Below are positions 7,865-18,794 of a DNA stretch of 64,000 nt, in pieces. How positions within the stretch are numbered: position 1 is the first letter of the stretch; each line of letters opens with the position of its first letter. The notes beneath the pieces are model-generated. The model ran no database searches, was not told the DNA's origin, and was given only the letters and a program-made list of their open reading frames with translations. The stretch spans positions 32,001 to 96,000 of IMG/VR virus record IMGVR_UViG_3300021399_000106; one strand, given 5' to 3'. Source of the stretch: a virus (lineage: Duplodnaviria; Caudoviricetes). A program made the translations under genes and the position numbers.

Positions 7865-7964
7865 AAGACAGTTACAGCAATTCTAAATGCTAGACAAATG
7901 GATAAGTCAATTTCCTGCTAAGAAATCATTTTGGGTTCAAATCCCAAGCAAATAAAACTGTCTT
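7865..7964 (+). ncRNA. Handle RNA 1 carrying a tRNA(GCT)-like body
   Basis: AAGACAGTT-ACAGCAA...AACTGTCTT; D arm, loop CTGCTAA and T arm inside; no CCA. Confidence 0.75.
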
Positions 7965-7970
7965 GTATAT

Positions 7971-8302: not shown

Positions 8303-8419
8303 AAGACTCATACTGCAATTATTCCATTCTAGGATTTTTAGCTCATTTGGTAGAGCGTCAAACTTGTAATTTGAAAGTAGCAGGTTCAAGTCCTGCAGAA
8401 TCTATGATAAACGAGTCTT
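8303..8419 (+). ncRNA. Handle RNA 2 carrying a tRNA-Thr(TGT)-like body
   Basis: AAGACTC-ATACTGCAA...GAGTCTT; cloverleaf at about 8331-8403 without CCA. Confidence 0.78.
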
Positions 8420-9330: not shown

Positions 9331-9407
9331 CGGGATTTAGCTCAGCTTGGTAGAGCGCTTGGTTTGGGACCAAGATGTCGTAGGTTCGAATCCTATAATC
9401 CCGACCA
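9331..9407 (+). tRNA. tRNA-Pro (TGG)
   Basis: Cloverleaf, CCA. Confidence 0.95.
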
Positions 9408-12325: not shown

Positions 12326-12347
12326 ATATGTAAAATAAAAATTTAAG

Positions 12348-12408
12348 AGACACAGACAGCAAACAATTAATGCAATCAACTTTTAATTGATCAGGCAAAA
12401 ACGTGTCT
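12348..12408 (+). ncRNA. Handle RNA 3 carrying only a Lys(TTT) anticodon arm, in the leader of the DUF2828 gene
   Basis: AGACAC-AGACAGCAA...GTGTCT enclosing ATCAA-CTTTTAA-TTGAT. Confidence 0.75.
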
Positions 12409-12425
12409 AGAAAGGAAGATTAATT

Positions 12426-14057
12426 ATGGATTTTTATGGAACAATGCAAAAGGTACAAAATAATGTATCAGTAACTGAAAATGGTATGGAAGGATACAAG
12501 ACAACTTTCCACCCATTACTAGATATGAATTTCAAGGTAACTTCATATCGTAAGCTTACAGATAGAGATATCTGTAATGATATTGACCAAATAATTTCTC
12601 AAGCAGAGGATGCTCAATATCTATTAAAATTCTTATTTATGGTAAGAGATGTTAGAGATGGTTTAGGAGAAAGAAGATTATTTAGAGTTGCATTAAAGCA
12701 TCTATTAAATACTGCTAATTTCGATAATAAGACTGAAATAATTTCAGACTTAATTAAAACTCAAATTTCTAATTTTGGTAGATTTGATGACTTATTTATT
12801 TTCGTAGGTACCCCTTATGAAAATATCTTAATTAAAACAATTAAGAATCAATTAAAGTCAGACTATGAGAATATGTTAGCTAATAAGAGCATTTCATTAT
12901 TAGCTAAGTGGATGCCATCTGAAAATGCTTCTTCAAAGGAAACTAAGAAGTTAGCAACAGCAATTAGAAAGGCATTAAATGCAGATTCTAAGACTTATAG
13001 AAAAACTTTATCAGCATTAAGAGCATATTTAAAGGTAACTGAAACTTATACTTCAGCTAATGAATGGGATAAGATTGATTATAATCAAGTTCCTTCTAAG
13101 GCAAACTTAAAGTATAAGGATGCATTCTTAAAGCATGATGAGGAAAGACGTAGAGATTACTTAGCTGCATTAAGAGTTGGTGTTGATAAGGAAGGTAATA
13201 AGGTTAAGATTAATTCTTCAGTTAACTTCCCACATGAAATTGTTGCTAAGTATACTAAGAAAAGCTACTGGAGCTTACAATTATCTGAATATGATGAAGC
13301 ATTAGAACAATTATGGAAGAATTTAAAGCAAAAAGATGGTTTAAATAACACAATCGTTGTTAGAGATGGTTCTGGTTCAATGACTTCAACAATTGGTAAT
13401 GGCGATACAACTGCATTAGATGTTTCAACAGCATTAGCAATTTATTGTTCAGAACATTTAAATTCAGGATTTAAGGATAAATTCTTAACATTCTCAAGTA
13501 GAGCTAAGTTAATTGATTTAAGTGCTGAAACTAATTTACATAACAAATTAAATAAGGTATTTAAAGAGGATGATTGCTCAAATACAAACATTGAAGATGT
13601 ATTCGATGTAATTTTAAATACAGCTGTTAATGGTAATGTTGCACCTGAGGATATGCCAGCACAAGTATTAATTATTTCAGATATGGAATTTGATGGTGCT
13701 TATGGTGGAAATAGATTCAATGGTACAAGCAACGTATTCAAGAAAGCAGCTACTAAGTATGCCAATGCAGGTTACAAGTTACCTAAATTAGTATTCTGGA
13801 ATGTATGCTCTAGAACAAATACTATCCCAGTAACACAAAATGAAAATGGTGTAGTATTAGTATCAGGATTCTCAGTTAATACCTTAAATATGGTATTAAA
13901 TGGAAAGACTTCACCTTGGTTATCATTAGTAGATGAATTAACTACAGAAAAGTATAATTCAATTCCATTATTAGCTAATGTAGTGAAGGCTAATGTAAAG
14001 GTAAATACTACTAAGAGAACCTCTAAGTCAAATAAGACACCTGATTTCTTAAAGTAA
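12426..14057 (+). CDS. DUF2828-family helical + vWA protein (Ro60/TROVE-like architecture)
   Basis: TENG, RDVRDGLGER, AKWMPSE, MIDAS DGSGSM, ISDMEFD, VFWN and VSGFS motifs. Confidence 0.85.
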   Translation: MDFYGTMQKVQNNVSVTENGMEGYKTTFHPLLDMNFKVTSYRKLTDRDICNDIDQIISQAEDAQYLLKFLFMVRDVRDGLGERRLFRVALKHLLNTANFDNKTEIISDLIKTQISNFGRFDDLFIFVGTPYENILIKTIKNQLKSDYENMLANKSISLLAKWMPSENASSKETKKLATAIRKALNADSKTYRKTLSALRAYLKVTETYTSANEWDKIDYNQVPSKANLKYKDAFLKHDEERRRDYLAALRVGVDKEGNKVKINSSVNFPHEIVAKYTKKSYWSLQLSEYDEALEQLWKNLKQKDGLNNTIVVRDGSGSMTSTIGNGDTTALDVSTALAIYCSEHLNSGFKDKFLTFSSRAKLIDLSAETNLHNKLNKVFKEDDCSNTNIEDVFDVILNTAVNGNVAPEDMPAQVLIISDMEFDGAYGGNRFNGTSNVFKKAATKYANAGYKLPKLVFWNVCSRTNTIPVTQNENGVVLVSGFSVNTLNMVLNGKTSPWLSLVDELTTEKYNSIPLLANVVKANVKVNTTKRTSKSNKTPDFLK

Positions 14058-14069
14058 AAAAATAAATAA

Positions 14070-14229
14070 AAGACACATACAGCGATATTTATATCATGCT
14101 TGAGGAGCCGCCGATGGAGGTATGAAATCCTCCCTTCCCGACCAAGAGCTATTAAGTTTAATTATTTAATAGTTGTTGCTCGGGAAGTAGCTTAATATTC
14201 ATAGAGCAGCGATTGATAAAACGTGTCTT
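14070..14229 (+). ncRNA. Handle RNA 4: circularly permuted tRNA-Pro-like
   Basis: AAGACAC-ATACAGCGA...GTGTCTT; T arm + CTTCCCG-ACCA precedes CGGGAAG + D arm. Confidence 0.8.
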
Positions 14230-14255
14230 GTTGACTTAAAAATAAATAACGGTAA

Positions 14256-14395
14256 AAGACATTTACTGCAATTCTAACGATTATCACATGTCAAGTGAGT
14301 GACGGTGGTTCGATTCCATCCTCCCCTGCCATTTATTATAATATATAGGGGAGTAGTTCAGTGGTAGAATGCTAAAAAATCAACCAAAATGTCTT
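14256..14395 (+). ncRNA. Handle RNA 5: circularly permuted tRNA-Asp(GTC)
   Basis: AAGACATTT-ACTGCAA...AAATGTCTT; anticodon arm, T arm, CTCCCCT-GCCA, linker, AGGGGAG + D arm. Confidence 0.85.
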
Positions 14396-14440
14396 GATTA
14401 CCTTTAAAATATAAATTTAATATAACATATATAAATAGAT

Positions 14441-14572
14441 TAGACACATACAGCAACTTTTAATCTTTTAGATTACTATAGGTTCAAATCCTATCTCAGC
14501 AACATTGCTAAGTGGCGAAAATGGTATACGCAAACTACTTAAAATAGTTATAATGAAAAAGAAACGTGTCTA
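14441..14572 (+). ncRNA. Handle RNA 6: circularly permuted tRNA-Leu(TAA)
   Basis: TAGACAC-ATACAGCAA...GTGTCTA; variable arm, T arm, loop-closed acceptor, D arm, anticodon arm. Confidence 0.83.
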
Positions 14573-14585
14573 GAAATTAAAATAG

Positions 14586-14617
14586 ATTGGTATTTTACTA
14601 GTAATACCAATTTTTTT
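14586..14617 (+). terminator. Intrinsic terminator after handle RNAs 4-6
   Basis: ATTGGTATT/AATACCAAT hairpin + T tract. Confidence 0.7.
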
Positions 14618-14647
14618 ATTGTATAATTTAATAGAAGAGGTGATATT

Positions 14648-14875
14648 ATGTTATTTTTAGAAACAAGTTCAGAATCTATGACATTATTTACAGCTTTAGT
14701 AATTGTGTTAGTAATAGCATTAGGAATAGTTGTATTATTAATTACATTAAAAACTAATCGATTATTTCCTTTTCATAAAATGCATAAAGAAGATGAAGAT
14801 AATTGTTATGATATGAATCTAAGAAAATCAAGTTCAGTAAAAAAGGATGAAAGAGGAAATAAATGGAAACATTAG
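14648..14875 (+). CDS. Small membrane protein
   Basis: GAGGTG RBS, one transmembrane segment. Confidence 0.6.
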   Translation: MLFLETSSESMTLFTALVIVLVIALGIVVLLITLKTNRLFPFHKMHKEDEDNCYDMNLRKSSSVKKDERGNKWKH

Positions 14876-18487: not shown

Positions 18488-18577
18488 TAGTTACACACAG
18501 CAATTTAATAATACAAATACATGAACAACATTTATATCATTGTTTGGATACGAAAGTAATTAGTAGGTTCGTAACTA
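18488..18577 (+). ncRNA. Handle RNA 7 (no clear tRNA cargo)
   Basis: TAGTTAC-ACACAGCAA...GTAACTA. Confidence 0.65.
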
Positions 18578-18710: not shown

Positions 18711-18794
18711 AGTCGCATACAGCAAAATAAAAAATCTTTTAAAAAGAAGACAAATAATACAATCAAAAAAATTATTTTGATAGTTATGGCGACT
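18711..18794 (+). ncRNA. Handle RNA 8 (AT-rich cargo)
   Basis: AGTCGC-ATACAGCAA...GCGACT. Confidence 0.65.

What the first reader, a model, noticed from the sequence alone, without database searches (positions are those of the whole stretch)
14070..14229. Circularly permuted tRNA-Pro-like RNA opened at the anticodon arm
The 3' half (T stem GGAGG/CCTCC, CTTCCCG-A-CCA at 14134-14144) precedes a hairpin linker and the 5' half (CGGGAAG at 14181-14187 plus D arm). The C1-G72/A73 acceptor is typical of tRNA-Pro. The handle stands where the anticodon arm would be, as in YrlA. Three adjacent RNAs therefore show three different permutation points, implying repeated capture of tRNAs into one handle, possibly via circular RNA intermediates (inference).
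Basis: partly seen in the sequence, partly recalled or inferred. Interest (0 to 1): 0.8.

Follow-up and report, generated by a model that had tools for sequence, protein, structure and literature searches.

The report
Phage Y-like RNA mimicking tRNA-Pro
This 160-base stretch is one of three small RNAs encoded just after a phage gene for a Ro60-shaped protein; it folds like a tRNA opened at the anticodon end, its acceptor arm is identical to that of bacterial proline tRNA, and it belongs to a widespread Ro/Y-RNA-like family for which I found no description and which this scan has met before on other DNA.

Summary
Window 14070-14229 (+) is a structured RNA. A 7-bp closing stem and an AUACAGCGA motif enclose a T arm, an acceptor 3' strand plus ACCA, a 36-nt hairpin, the acceptor 5' strand and a D arm. 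Orthologs in six related phage contigs and covariation in every helix show it is functional.

It lies in a row of three such RNAs behind a DUF2828 gene whose predicted fold matches Ro60. This is the architecture of YrlA-type bacterial Y RNAs, but R1 has a different handle motif and gets no Rfam YrlA match (R2 gets only a sub-threshold one).

The acceptor arm (7 bp, A73, CCA) is identical to cellular tRNA-Pro. The neighbours resemble tRNA-Trp and tRNA-Leu.

The "three permutation points" are only partly real. The core order and the handle position are the same in all three RNAs. Only labile accessory hairpins differ.

ACCA plus the hairpin is kept in relatives with 89% and 78% protein identity, but is replaced by 4-5-nt loops in two others. 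Nothing supports circular-RNA intermediates; a tandem tRNA-gene junction is simpler.

The scan has already noted this DUF2828/ACAGCAA family in at least 24 other genomes. I found no published description. Verdict: a new variant of a known kind.

The parts
12346..12411 (+). Leader handle RNA directly before the ribosome-binding site of the Ro-like gene. It has a closing stem, an ACAGCAA motif and one hairpin with a CUUUUAA loop.
   Evidence: Conserved at the same place in L001, L021, L024, L025, L027 and L028, with different 7-nt loops.
12426..14057 (+). Gene for a 543-aa DUF2828 + DUF7788 protein, a divergent Ro60-like ring (HEAT repeats plus a vWA domain).
   Evidence: Pfam. AlphaFold2 model with pLDDT 80. 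The top 12 Foldseek PDB hits are all Ro60/TROVE over full length, E 3e-9 to 5e-5. A profile search of the PDB puts a TROVE protein first, E 0.029, at the MIDAS motif.
14070..14229 (+). R1, the finding: a handle RNA with a tRNA-Pro-like domain.
14070..14085 (+). Handle, 5' side: stem strand AAGACAC (14070-14076), then AU and the motif ACAGCGA (14079-14085).
   Evidence: Motif and covarying stem seen in 173 model hits, all on the strand of the Ro-like gene.
14098..14108 (+). Small hairpin GCUU-GAG-GAGC specific to the R1 lineage.
   Evidence: Stem kept and loop varying (GAG, UGG, CAG) in L021, L025 and L027.
14109..14111 (+). 3' strand (CGC) of a 3-bp remnant of the anticodon stem. It pairs with GCG at 14209-14211.
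   Evidence: ARAGORN cloverleaf. Compensatory CGG/CCG in L027 and L028. Helix 3.
14116..14133 (+). T arm: GGAGG, the 8-nt loop UAUGAAAU, CCUCC.
   Evidence: Identical in L021, L024 and L025. AGAGG/CCUCU (compensatory) in L028.
14134..14144 (+). Acceptor 3' strand CUUCCCG, then A73 and CCA.
14145..14180 (+). Linker hairpin that extends the acceptor helix.
   Evidence: z = -9.7. Kept in L024 and L028, with two compensatory pair changes in L028. Replaced by ACGCG in L025 and CGCG in L021.
14181..14187 (+). Acceptor 5' strand CGGGAAG.
14190..14207 (+). D arm: GCUU, a 10-nt loop without GG, GAGC.
   Evidence: Stem covaries: GCCU/GGGC in L021 and L024, GGUU/GACC in L027.
14223..14229 (+). Handle, 3' strand GUGUCUU.
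14257..14394 (+). R2: a handle RNA with a tRNA-Trp-like domain, GCCA and a 15-nt AU-rich linker.
14440..14573 (+). R3: a handle RNA with a tRNA-Leu-like domain. Its acceptor stem is closed by a 4-nt loop.
14587..14617 (+). AT-rich hairpin followed by a run of U, probably the terminator of the unit. The next TTGTATAAT promoter motif is at 14619.
   Evidence: Fold z = -3.2. Promoter motif: 18 matches against 3.9 expected, 17 of them on the + strand. The consensus terminator scan did not list the hairpin because it has too few G-C pairs.

Best explanation
R1 is a Y-RNA-like partner RNA of the phage's Ro60-like DUF2828 protein.

It is probably made from the same transcript as the protein gene, together with R2 and R3, and then cut out (inferred).

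The closing stem plus the single-stranded AUACAGCGA motif is the common handle by which the ring protein would hold all these RNAs. This is inferred by analogy with Ro60 and Y RNA.

The rest of R1 is a tRNA-shaped domain attached to the handle where the anticodon arm would be, as in YrlA. Its acceptor arm copies tRNA-Pro exactly. Its T and D loops have left the tRNA consensus, and may pair with each other instead.

The particle would display this tRNA-Pro look-alike to something that recognises tRNA acceptor arms or tRNA shape, either to recruit it or to divert it. The setting is a phage with 32 tRNA genes and RNA-repair enzymes next door.

The ACCA and the hairpin that follows it form an extension of the acceptor helix. 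That extension is conserved in part of the lineage and dispensable in another part. Its most likely origin is the head-to-tail junction of two tRNA genes.
For: Context:
- R1 lies 13 nt after the stop codon of a protein whose model matches only Ro60/TROVE structures over full length.
- Tpt1 lies upstream and an ATP-dependent ligase downstream. There are 32 tRNAs in the window.

Family:
- The stem-plus-ACAGCAA handle recurs in 173 model hits in 96 sources, all on the strand of the Ro-like gene.
- It is also found by a stem-plus-motif scan beside the DUF2828 gene in Bacillus phage Tsamsa, Listeria phage AG20, a Felix O1-like coliphage and Mycobacterium phage Gardann.
- The handle stem covaries at all 7 pairs, with 98% of cells paired.

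R1 itself:
- Orthologs in six contigs, with compensatory changes in the T, D, anticodon-remnant, handle and linker helices.
- The T-acceptor-D order equals the YrlA layout (PMC4201824).

Pro likeness.

NCCA:
- NCCA directly after a 7-bp acceptor occurs in at least 5 independent lineages of about 22, against a chance of about 0.009 each.
- This phage's own tRNA genes encode CCA and stand 3-15 nt apart, which fits an origin at a gene junction.
Against: - No binding, expression or processing data exist. That the protein binds the handle rests on analogy and co-location.
- R1 does not match the Rfam YrlA model at all, and it lacks the GNCGAA motif that marks Ro60 binding in known bacterial Y RNAs.
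- Pfam TROVE is not detected in this genome.
- The T and D loops are not tRNA-like, so enzymes that read the tRNA elbow may not see R1.
- A 543-kb phage carries a clear Pro-type handle RNA (L019) but has no detectable DUF2828 or TROVE gene, so the RNA is not always encoded with the protein.
- The ligand of the tRNA-like domain is unknown.
Confidence: 0.7

Rival explanations
1. R1 is made as a closed RNA and then opened. RNase P cuts before C1 (14181) and exonucleases trim the linker back to ACCA. The result is a two-piece RNA with a free tRNA-Pro-type acceptor end, still held together by the acceptor stem and the handle. That end could be charged, or could be bound or attacked by factors that act on tRNA 3' ends. 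This is a variant of the main explanation, not a replacement.
For: - Precedent: Mycobacterium smegmatis YrlA has a 7-bp acceptor stem, is cut by RNase P in vitro and in vivo, and gains CCA (PMC4201824).
- R1 has a 7-bp acceptor, A73, an encoded CCA and U at -1.
- ACCA is kept in L024 and L028.
- NCCA is strongly enriched in the family.
- In R2 the GCCA is kept in three phages while its AU-rich linker drifts.
Against: - In R1 the CCA is base-paired inside a long, stable hairpin. It is fully paired in L028. From general knowledge of RNase P substrates, I expect this to disfavour recognition.
- The linker stem covaries, as expected of a kept structure rather than a discarded spacer.
- Two sister lineages replaced CCA plus linker with 4-5-nt loops and kept everything else.
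- There is no anticodon for ProRS.
Confidence: 0.2
2. R1 is a true circularly permuted tRNA-Pro gene, as in the red alga Cyanidioschyzon merolae. Its transcript would be circularised and reopened to give a working tRNA-Pro.
For: The 3' half precedes the 5' half, with CCA and a linker between them. The acceptor is identical to that of tRNA-Pro.
Against: - There is no anticodon loop with NGG. The handle and extra hairpins sit where the anticodon arm should be, and only 3 bp of that stem remain.
- ARAGORN and the Rfam tRNA model do not call it.
- The T loop has 8 nt and the D loop lacks GG.
- The phage already has a normal tRNA-Pro(UGG) at 9331-9407.
- Sister lineages lack CCA altogether.
Confidence: 0.02
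3. R1 is a decaying remnant of two tandem tRNA-Pro genes, or simply a structured 3' untranslated region or terminator of the DUF2828 mRNA, with no function as a free RNA.
For: A tandem junction gives the same order of parts. R1 has no promoter motif of its own and follows the gene by 13 nt.
Against: - The handle motif and stem are conserved, and every helix shows compensatory changes across relatives with 78-89% protein identity.
- The same unit type occurs away from the gene in this genome, at 7866-7965, 8303-8419 and 18488-18577.
- The real terminator-like hairpin lies after R3.
Confidence: 0.06

Closest known systems
YrlA-type bacterial and mycobacteriophage Y RNAs bound by the Ro60 ortholog Rsr (Chen et al. 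2014, PMC4201824; Rfam RF02553)
   Same: - Encoded next to a Ro60-like gene and on the same strand.
- The 5' and 3' ends pair to form the protein-binding module.
- The inside holds a T arm, an acceptor stem-loop and a D arm in that order, often with a further hairpin before the T arm.
- Several Y RNAs per locus.
- One member (M. smegmatis) has a 7-bp acceptor stem and is opened by RNase P and given CCA.
   Different: - The protein is DUF2828, not Pfam TROVE. Sequence similarity to solved Ro60 proteins is marginal (profile E 0.029), and only the predicted fold matches clearly.
- The motif is ACAGCAA beside a covarying stem, instead of GNCGAA.
- R1 gets no match to RF02553, and R2 gets only 21.6 bits against a cut-off of 69.
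- The R1 T and D loops are not tRNA-like.
- CCA is encoded rather than added, and is followed by a conserved hairpin.
- The domains copy particular tRNA isotypes.
Thermus phage phiLo Ro60 with Yrl1 and Yrl2 (PMC12135203; PDB 9KOP, 9L5Y)
   Same: A phage-encoded Ro60-fold protein with adjacent small RNAs. These structures are the best structural matches of the window's protein.
   Different: The phiLo RNAs lie upstream of the gene, carry a CGAA motif in a bulge, and are not described as tRNA-like. About 15% sequence identity.
Two-piece (circularly permuted) tmRNA genes of alpha-proteobacteria and cyanobacteria (Rfam RF04321)
   Same: The gene order is T arm, acceptor 3' strand with CCA, an intervening stretch, then the acceptor 5' strand. 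In these genes the intervening stretch is removed (from my own knowledge). R2 gives weak partial hits to tmRNA models over exactly this part.
   Different: There is no mRNA-like reading frame and no pseudoknots. The scores are far below the cut-off (14.7 bits against 47). Processing of R1 has not been shown.
Circularly permuted tRNA genes of Cyanidioschyzon merolae (from my own knowledge: Soma et al. 2007)
   Same: The 3' half of a tRNA is encoded before the 5' half, with a linker between the acceptor strands.
   Different: Those genes yield complete tRNAs with anticodons, through a circular intermediate made by the eukaryotic/archaeal splicing machinery. R1 has no anticodon arm, and that machinery is not known in bacteria or phages.

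Membership tests
YrlA (Rfam RF02553; Chen et al. 2014) | Match to the covariance model at or above the gathering score (69 bits) | tested here: not met
   No hit for R1 at E up to 10. R2 scores 21.6 bits over model positions 27-81 only.
YrlA (Rfam RF02553; Chen et al. 2014) | T arm, acceptor stem-loop and D arm in that order, enclosed by the paired 5' and 3' ends | tested here: met
YrlA (Rfam RF02553; Chen et al. 2014) | GNCGAA(N0-1)G motif near the 5' end (the presumed Ro60 contact) | tested here: not met
   R1 has AUACAGCGA. The family consensus is ACAGCAA.
YrlA (Rfam RF02553; Chen et al. 2014) | Nearly invariant tRNA-like T and D loops that allow the tRNA tertiary pairs | tested here: not met
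   R1 has the T loop UAUGAAAU (8 nt) and a D loop without GG, both conserved in its orthologs. R2 and R3 do have canonical loops.
YrlA (Rfam RF02553; Chen et al. 2014) | Encoded within about 4 kb of a Ro60 ortholog, on the same strand | tested here: met
   13 nt downstream of a Ro60-fold protein, same strand. The protein is DUF2828, not Pfam TROVE.
Ro60 / TROVE protein family (for the neighbouring gene) | HEAT-repeat ring plus a C-terminal vWA domain with a MIDAS motif | tested here: met
   The top 12 Foldseek hits are Ro60 structures over 510-598 columns. An invariant DxSGS is present.
Ro60 / TROVE protein family (for the neighbouring gene) | Match to Pfam TROVE (PF05731) | tested here: not met
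   Pfam gives DUF2828 + DUF7788. There is no TROVE match in the genome, while the control genomes do match.
Ro60 / Y RNA ribonucleoprotein | The protein binds the RNA | not testable with these tools
   Needs a gel-shift, pull-down or CLIP experiment.
tRNA-Pro | C1-G72, A73 and the acceptor stem of tRNA-Pro | tested here: met
   Identical to 118 ARAGORN-called tRNA-Pro genes of many bacteria. Shares 5 of 7 pairs plus A73 with the phage's own tRNA-Pro.
tRNA-Pro | Anticodon arm with an NGG anticodon; detection as a tRNA | tested here: not met
   Not called by ARAGORN or by Rfam tRNA. After de-permutation it is called only with introns allowed and a 70% threshold, and then with an arbitrary anticodon.
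Circularly permuted tRNA gene (C. merolae type) | Both halves together give a complete tRNA after rejoining | tested here: not met
   Only 3 bp of the anticodon stem remain, and there is no anticodon loop.
DUF2828-associated ACAGCAA handle RNAs (this scan's own working family; I found no published description) | A covarying closing stem of 6-9 bp, with A(C/U)(A/U)GC(A/G)A after the 5' strand, on the strand of and near a DUF2828 gene | tested here: met

The most novel reading that the evidence does not exclude
The phage's Ro-like particle carries a changeable set of tRNA-part baits on one handle. The baits are acceptor arms of particular isotypes (Pro, Trp, Leu, Ser) with real NCCA ends exposed after RNase P cutting, and anticodon-loop look-alikes that switch 'anticodon' between close relatives. 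The particle would use them to soak up, sense or redirect host factors that attack or modify tRNA during infection, such as anticodon nucleases and enzymes acting on the 3' CCA end or the acceptor stem. R1 would be the tRNA-Pro acceptor bait.
Probability: 0.12. Interest if true: 0.85.

Novelty: new variant of a known kind. Interest (0 to 1): 0.58.

Why it matters
Ro60 and its Y RNAs are a conserved but poorly understood RNA-surveillance particle. In bacteria the tRNA-like part of YrlA still has no known ligand.

Here the same design appears in a divergent protein family (DUF2828) found in 710 deposited phage records by tblastn, with a different handle. A stem-plus-motif scan found that handle beside the gene in four cultivated phages, including Felix O1-like, Listeria and Bacillus phages. 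Unlike YrlA, these tRNA-like domains copy particular tRNA isotypes down to the discriminator base and CCA.

R1 is a clean case. Its acceptor arm is an exact copy of tRNA-Pro, while its T and D loops are re-engineered. That combination narrows what the domain is read by: something that looks at the acceptor end rather than at the tRNA elbow. It also offers a simple test system (protein, RNA, RNase P, ProRS).

The finding also corrects gene calls. Several 'tRNAs' annotated in such phages are handle RNAs.

Tried and rejected
- Rfam at the gathering score and at E up to 10: nothing for R1, only chance miRNA/snoRNA hairpin hits.
- ARAGORN with default settings on the window and on the de-permuted R1: no call.
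- Single-sequence search of the PDB with the protein: empty. The profile search was only marginal, so I went to a fold comparison.
- Consensus promoter and terminator scan: uninformative in this AT-rich DNA.
- blastn of the locus against deposited phages: only a short piece of the gene matches, and no R1 homolog is found.
- Literature: 'DUF2828' gives no relevant paper, and I found no paper on Ro-like phage proteins with such RNAs. The Annual Review on bacterial Ro60 was not held.
- My first pattern-based survey of modules was noisy: 1090 'units', mostly false. I replaced it with a T-arm-anchored scan and a covariance model.
- MAFFT misplaces the L027 hybrid in alignment A3, so I did not count pairs on A3 and used the model-fitted alignment A4 instead. 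That alignment leans towards the model.
- DUF2828 and TROVE searches in the 543-kb phage that holds L019: no match.
- The reading of R2 as tRNA-Asp-like (an earlier first-stage note) is rejected in favour of Trp-like.
- Complex prediction was not used, because it handles protein-protein pairs only.

Full report
**What is there**

Reading window 13500-14800 shows a 543-codon gene ending at 14057, followed by three RNAs built alike:
- R1 at 14070-14229
- R2 at about 14257-14394
- R3 at 14440-14573

Each RNA starts with a stem strand of the type AAGACAC, followed by AU and ACAGC(A/G)A. Each ends with the complementary strand followed by UUG or UAG.

After R3 comes an AT-rich hairpin with a U run (14587-14617). 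Directly after it is the motif TTGTATAAT, which occurs 18 times in the window against 3.9 expected, 17 of them on the + strand. It looks like this phage's promoter.

No exact copy of that motif lies between 10538 and 14619. The protein gene and the three RNAs therefore probably form one transcription unit. This is an inference.

**R1 in detail**

In order, R1 contains:
- the handle strand and the motif
- a weak hairpin
- a small hairpin GCUU-GAG-GAGC
- the 3' strand of a 3-bp remnant of the anticodon stem
- a 4-nt variable region
- a T arm, GGAGG/CCUCC, with an 8-nt loop UAUGAAAU
- the acceptor 3' strand CUUCCCG, then ACCA
- a 36-nt hairpin
- the acceptor 5' strand CGGGAAG, then UA
- a D arm, GCUU/GAGC, with a 10-nt loop that has no GG
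- A, then the other strand of the anticodon-stem remnant
- 11 unpaired bases and the closing strand

The whole RNA folds far better than shuffles: z = -5.0, 0 of 200 shuffles. The acceptor-plus-linker part forms one long, slightly irregular helix with z = -9.7.

ARAGORN and Rfam do not call R1 a tRNA. After de-permutation, ARAGORN draws a cloverleaf only with introns allowed and a lowered threshold.

**Relatives**

The protein has many close relatives in metagenomes. I fetched the DNA around several of them. R1 orthologs are present in:
- L024 (protein 89% identical)
- L025 (83%)
- L021, with identical copies in L022, L023 and L026 (82%)
- L028 (78%)

L027 (81%) has a hybrid with the R1 frame but the acceptor arm and GCCA linker of R2. 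L001 (74%) has R2 and R3 but no R1.

Compensatory changes are seen in:
- the D stem (GCUU/GAGC, GCCU/GGGC, GGUU/GACC)
- the T stem (GGAGG/CCUCC to AGAGG/CCUCU)
- the anticodon-stem remnant (CGC/GCG to CGG/CCG)
- the closing stem
- two pairs of the linker hairpin in L028

The odd T and D loops are conserved. They are complementary to each other over 6 nt (UAUGAA with UUCAUA). Because both loops are AU-rich, shuffles reach this in 2-9% of trials. I treat it as a lead only.

**The cap of the acceptor stem varies**

- ACCA plus the roughly 36-nt hairpin is present in the window, L024 and L028.
- L025 has the 5-nt loop ACGCG.
- L021 has CGCG, with one pair lost.

The long form is found both in the closest relative sampled and in the most distant one that has R1. 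It is therefore probably ancestral, and the short loops are probably a later deletion (inference). Either way, the CCA and the hairpin are not needed for whatever the rest of R1 does.

In L028 the CCA is fully paired inside the helix. From general knowledge of RNase P substrates, I expect this to work against easy access by RNase P.

**The family**

A covariance model built from the four R1-type sequences finds 173 matches at E up to 1 in 96 sources. All lie on the strand of the DUF2828 gene.

On the resulting alignment, all six helices show changes on both sides. Of all cells, 95% are paired, against at most 51% when the partners are slid. The caveat is that the alignment is fitted to the model.

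About 30 of the 138 distinct RNAs carry the T-acceptor-D domain. The rest are short handle RNAs.

A stem-plus-motif scan also finds the same handle next to the DUF2828 gene in cultivated phages:
- Bacillus phage Tsamsa
- Listeria phage AG20
- a Felix O1-like coliphage, which has a full tRNA-like member inside its tRNA array
- Mycobacterium phage Gardann, whose annotated 'tRNA-Asn' is such an RNA

In this genome, further members lie at 7866-7965, 8303-8419, 12346-12411, 18488-18577 and 18711-18794.

**The protein**

Pfam calls it DUF2828 plus DUF7788. An AlphaFold2 model (pLDDT 80) matches Ro60 structures as its top 12 PDB hits over full length. These are from Thermus phage phiLo, Deinococcus, Xenopus and human.

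A sequence profile finds the phiLo TROVE protein first, at the MIDAS motif, with a marginal E-value. Pfam TROVE itself is not detected in the genome.

The protein is therefore a divergent Ro60-like ring. The neighbouring genes are Tpt1 (RNA 2'-phosphotransferase) and an ATP-dependent ligase. The window also carries 32 tRNA genes.

**tRNA-Pro likeness**

Among the phage's own tRNAs, the best match of the R1 halves is tRNA-Pro(UGG), with a score of 21 against 14 for the next best.

A pattern made of the R1 acceptor strands, the first D-arm bases and ACCA, spaced as in a tRNA, hit at least 120 bacterial genomes. Of these, 118 are called tRNA-Pro by ARAGORN and none is called any other isotype. 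Many are Bacillales and Mollicutes.

Against 327 distinct phage tRNAs, seven of the ten best matches of R1 are tRNA-Pro. By the same test:
- R2 is Trp-like. A genuine phage tRNA-Trp in L180 has the identical acceptor stem and G73.
- R3 is Leu-like.
- A module in L178 is Ser-like.

A Pro-type handle RNA with the same acceptor, ACCA and a 5-nt spacer also sits in a 543-kb phage contig (L019). That genome shows no DUF2828 or TROVE gene.

A non-permuted tRNA-like element with the same acceptor and nearly the same odd T loop lies beside a tRNA-Met in L014.

**NCCA**

In the model-aligned set, NCCA stands directly after the seventh acceptor pair in at least five independent lineages of about 22. These are the R1 type, the R2 type, L178, L219 and L019. 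L213 and L177 are further cases from the pattern scan. The chance expectation is about 0.009 per lineage.

This fits derivation from tRNA genes that encode CCA, as all tRNA genes of this phage do. It also fits selection for a CCA.

In R2 the GCCA is unchanged in three phages while the AU-rich linker has drifted.

The YrlA comparison is right as architecture. Chen et al. 2014 describe exactly this order of T arm, acceptor stem-loop and D arm inside a Ro-binding stem. They also showed that the M. smegmatis RNA, with a 7-bp acceptor stem, is cut by RNase P and receives CCA.

Membership in Rfam YrlA fails on score, on motif and, for R1, on the loops.

The 'three permutation points' reduce to this: R1 keeps both strands of a 3-bp anticodon-stem remnant, R2 has an anticodon-like hairpin before the T arm, and R3 has one hairpin on each side.

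These hairpins are unstable in evolution:
- The 'anticodon' of the R2 hairpin reads GUC, GUC, GAA and GCA in four relatives.
- The 3' hairpin of R3 is absent from L001, L021 and L025.

The core is the same in all three RNAs. Different tRNA sources are plausible. Circular RNA intermediates are unsupported. The junction of two tandem tRNA genes produces the same order, with NCCA and a short spacer in the middle, without any special chemistry (inference).

**Mechanism**

Best-supported explanation (about 0.7): R1 is a Y-RNA-like partner of the Ro-like protein. It is held by the handle and displays a tRNA-Pro-type acceptor arm on a tRNA-shaped scaffold.

What reads that arm is unknown. Candidates are host or phage factors that act on tRNA acceptor ends.

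Whether R1 is opened at the CCA is uncertain (about 0.2). The precedent and the conserved ACCA speak for it. The paired CCA, the covarying linker and the short-loop sister forms speak against it.

**Novelty**

Ro60 with tRNA-like Y RNAs, including in phages, is known (PMC4201824, PMC12135203). I found no description of the DUF2828 branch, with its ACAGCAA handle, its arrays and its isotype-specific domains, in the held literature or in Rfam.

This scan has already reported the family on other DNA, in at least 24 genomes, and in this genome as a set of eight. The present report adds:
- the anatomy and orthologs of the Pro-type member
- the variable cap
- the NCCA enrichment
- the isotype assignments

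Noticed in passing
window 12346-12411; L024:150-210, L027:2423-2483, L028:874-933, L021:2922-2982: The short handle RNA that abuts the ribosome-binding site of the Ro-like gene holds one hairpin with a 7-nt anticodon-like loop. Its middle three bases differ between close relatives: UUU in the window and L028, UGU in L024, GUU in L027. The stem is kept or covaries.
   Followed up: partly
window 7866-7965 and 8303-8419: Two ARAGORN 'tRNAs', Ser(gct) at 7884-7955 and Thr(tgt) at 8332-8404, lie inside handle units (closing stem plus ACAGCAA or ACUGCAA) and lack CCA. They are probably handle RNAs with non-permuted tRNA-like cargo, not working tRNAs. The Thr-type unit sits directly after R3 in L021 and L025.
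   Followed up: partly
L032:3003-3124 (Mycobacterium phage Gardann, NC_031124.1): The annotated tRNA-Asn 100 nt downstream of the 'RNA-binding protein' (DUF2828) gene is embedded in a handle RNA with a T arm, a closed acceptor stem and a D arm. Two short handle RNAs flank it.
   Followed up: partly
L014:3417-3547: A 131-nt tRNA-like element in normal (non-permuted) order beside a tRNA-Met. It has the same Pro-type acceptor plus ACCA as R1, a nearly identical 8-nt T loop (UGUGAAAU), a GG-less D loop and a central arm of about 60 nt. There is no ACAGCAA motif and no Rfam match.
   Followed up: partly
L019:2965-3085 (- strand), 543-kb phage contig: A Pro-type handle RNA (ACAGCAA, canonical T arm, CUUCCCG-ACCA-UUUAC-CGGGAAG, D arm) sits among tRNA genes in a giant phage that shows no DUF2828 or TROVE gene. 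It may rely on a host-encoded protein.
   Followed up: partly
L027:4156-4285: A hybrid RNA with the R1-type 5' frame and GG-less D loop, but the R2-type acceptor stem, GCCA and AU linker. This is evidence that modules recombine between neighbouring handle RNAs.
   Followed up: no
window 14121-14128 and 14194-14203: The T loop (UAUGAA) and the D loop (UUCAUA) of R1 are complementary over 6 nt and are conserved in all five orthologs. This may be a Watson-Crick replacement of the tRNA elbow contacts. The shuffle test gives only p of 0.02-0.09.
   Followed up: partly
L021:5200-5900 (also L022, L025, L026): Downstream of the handle-RNA array in the 82-83% relatives lies a non-coding, GC-richer stretch of about 700 nt with several strong hairpins, including a handle-like unit with ACAGCAG. 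It is not present at this place in the window, and I did not identify it.
   Followed up: no
window, TTGTATAAT at 18 sites: An extended -10-like motif occurs 18 times against 3.9 expected, 17 of them on the + strand. It is a likely promoter motif of this phage, and one copy stands right after the terminator-like hairpin that follows R3.
   Followed up: partly
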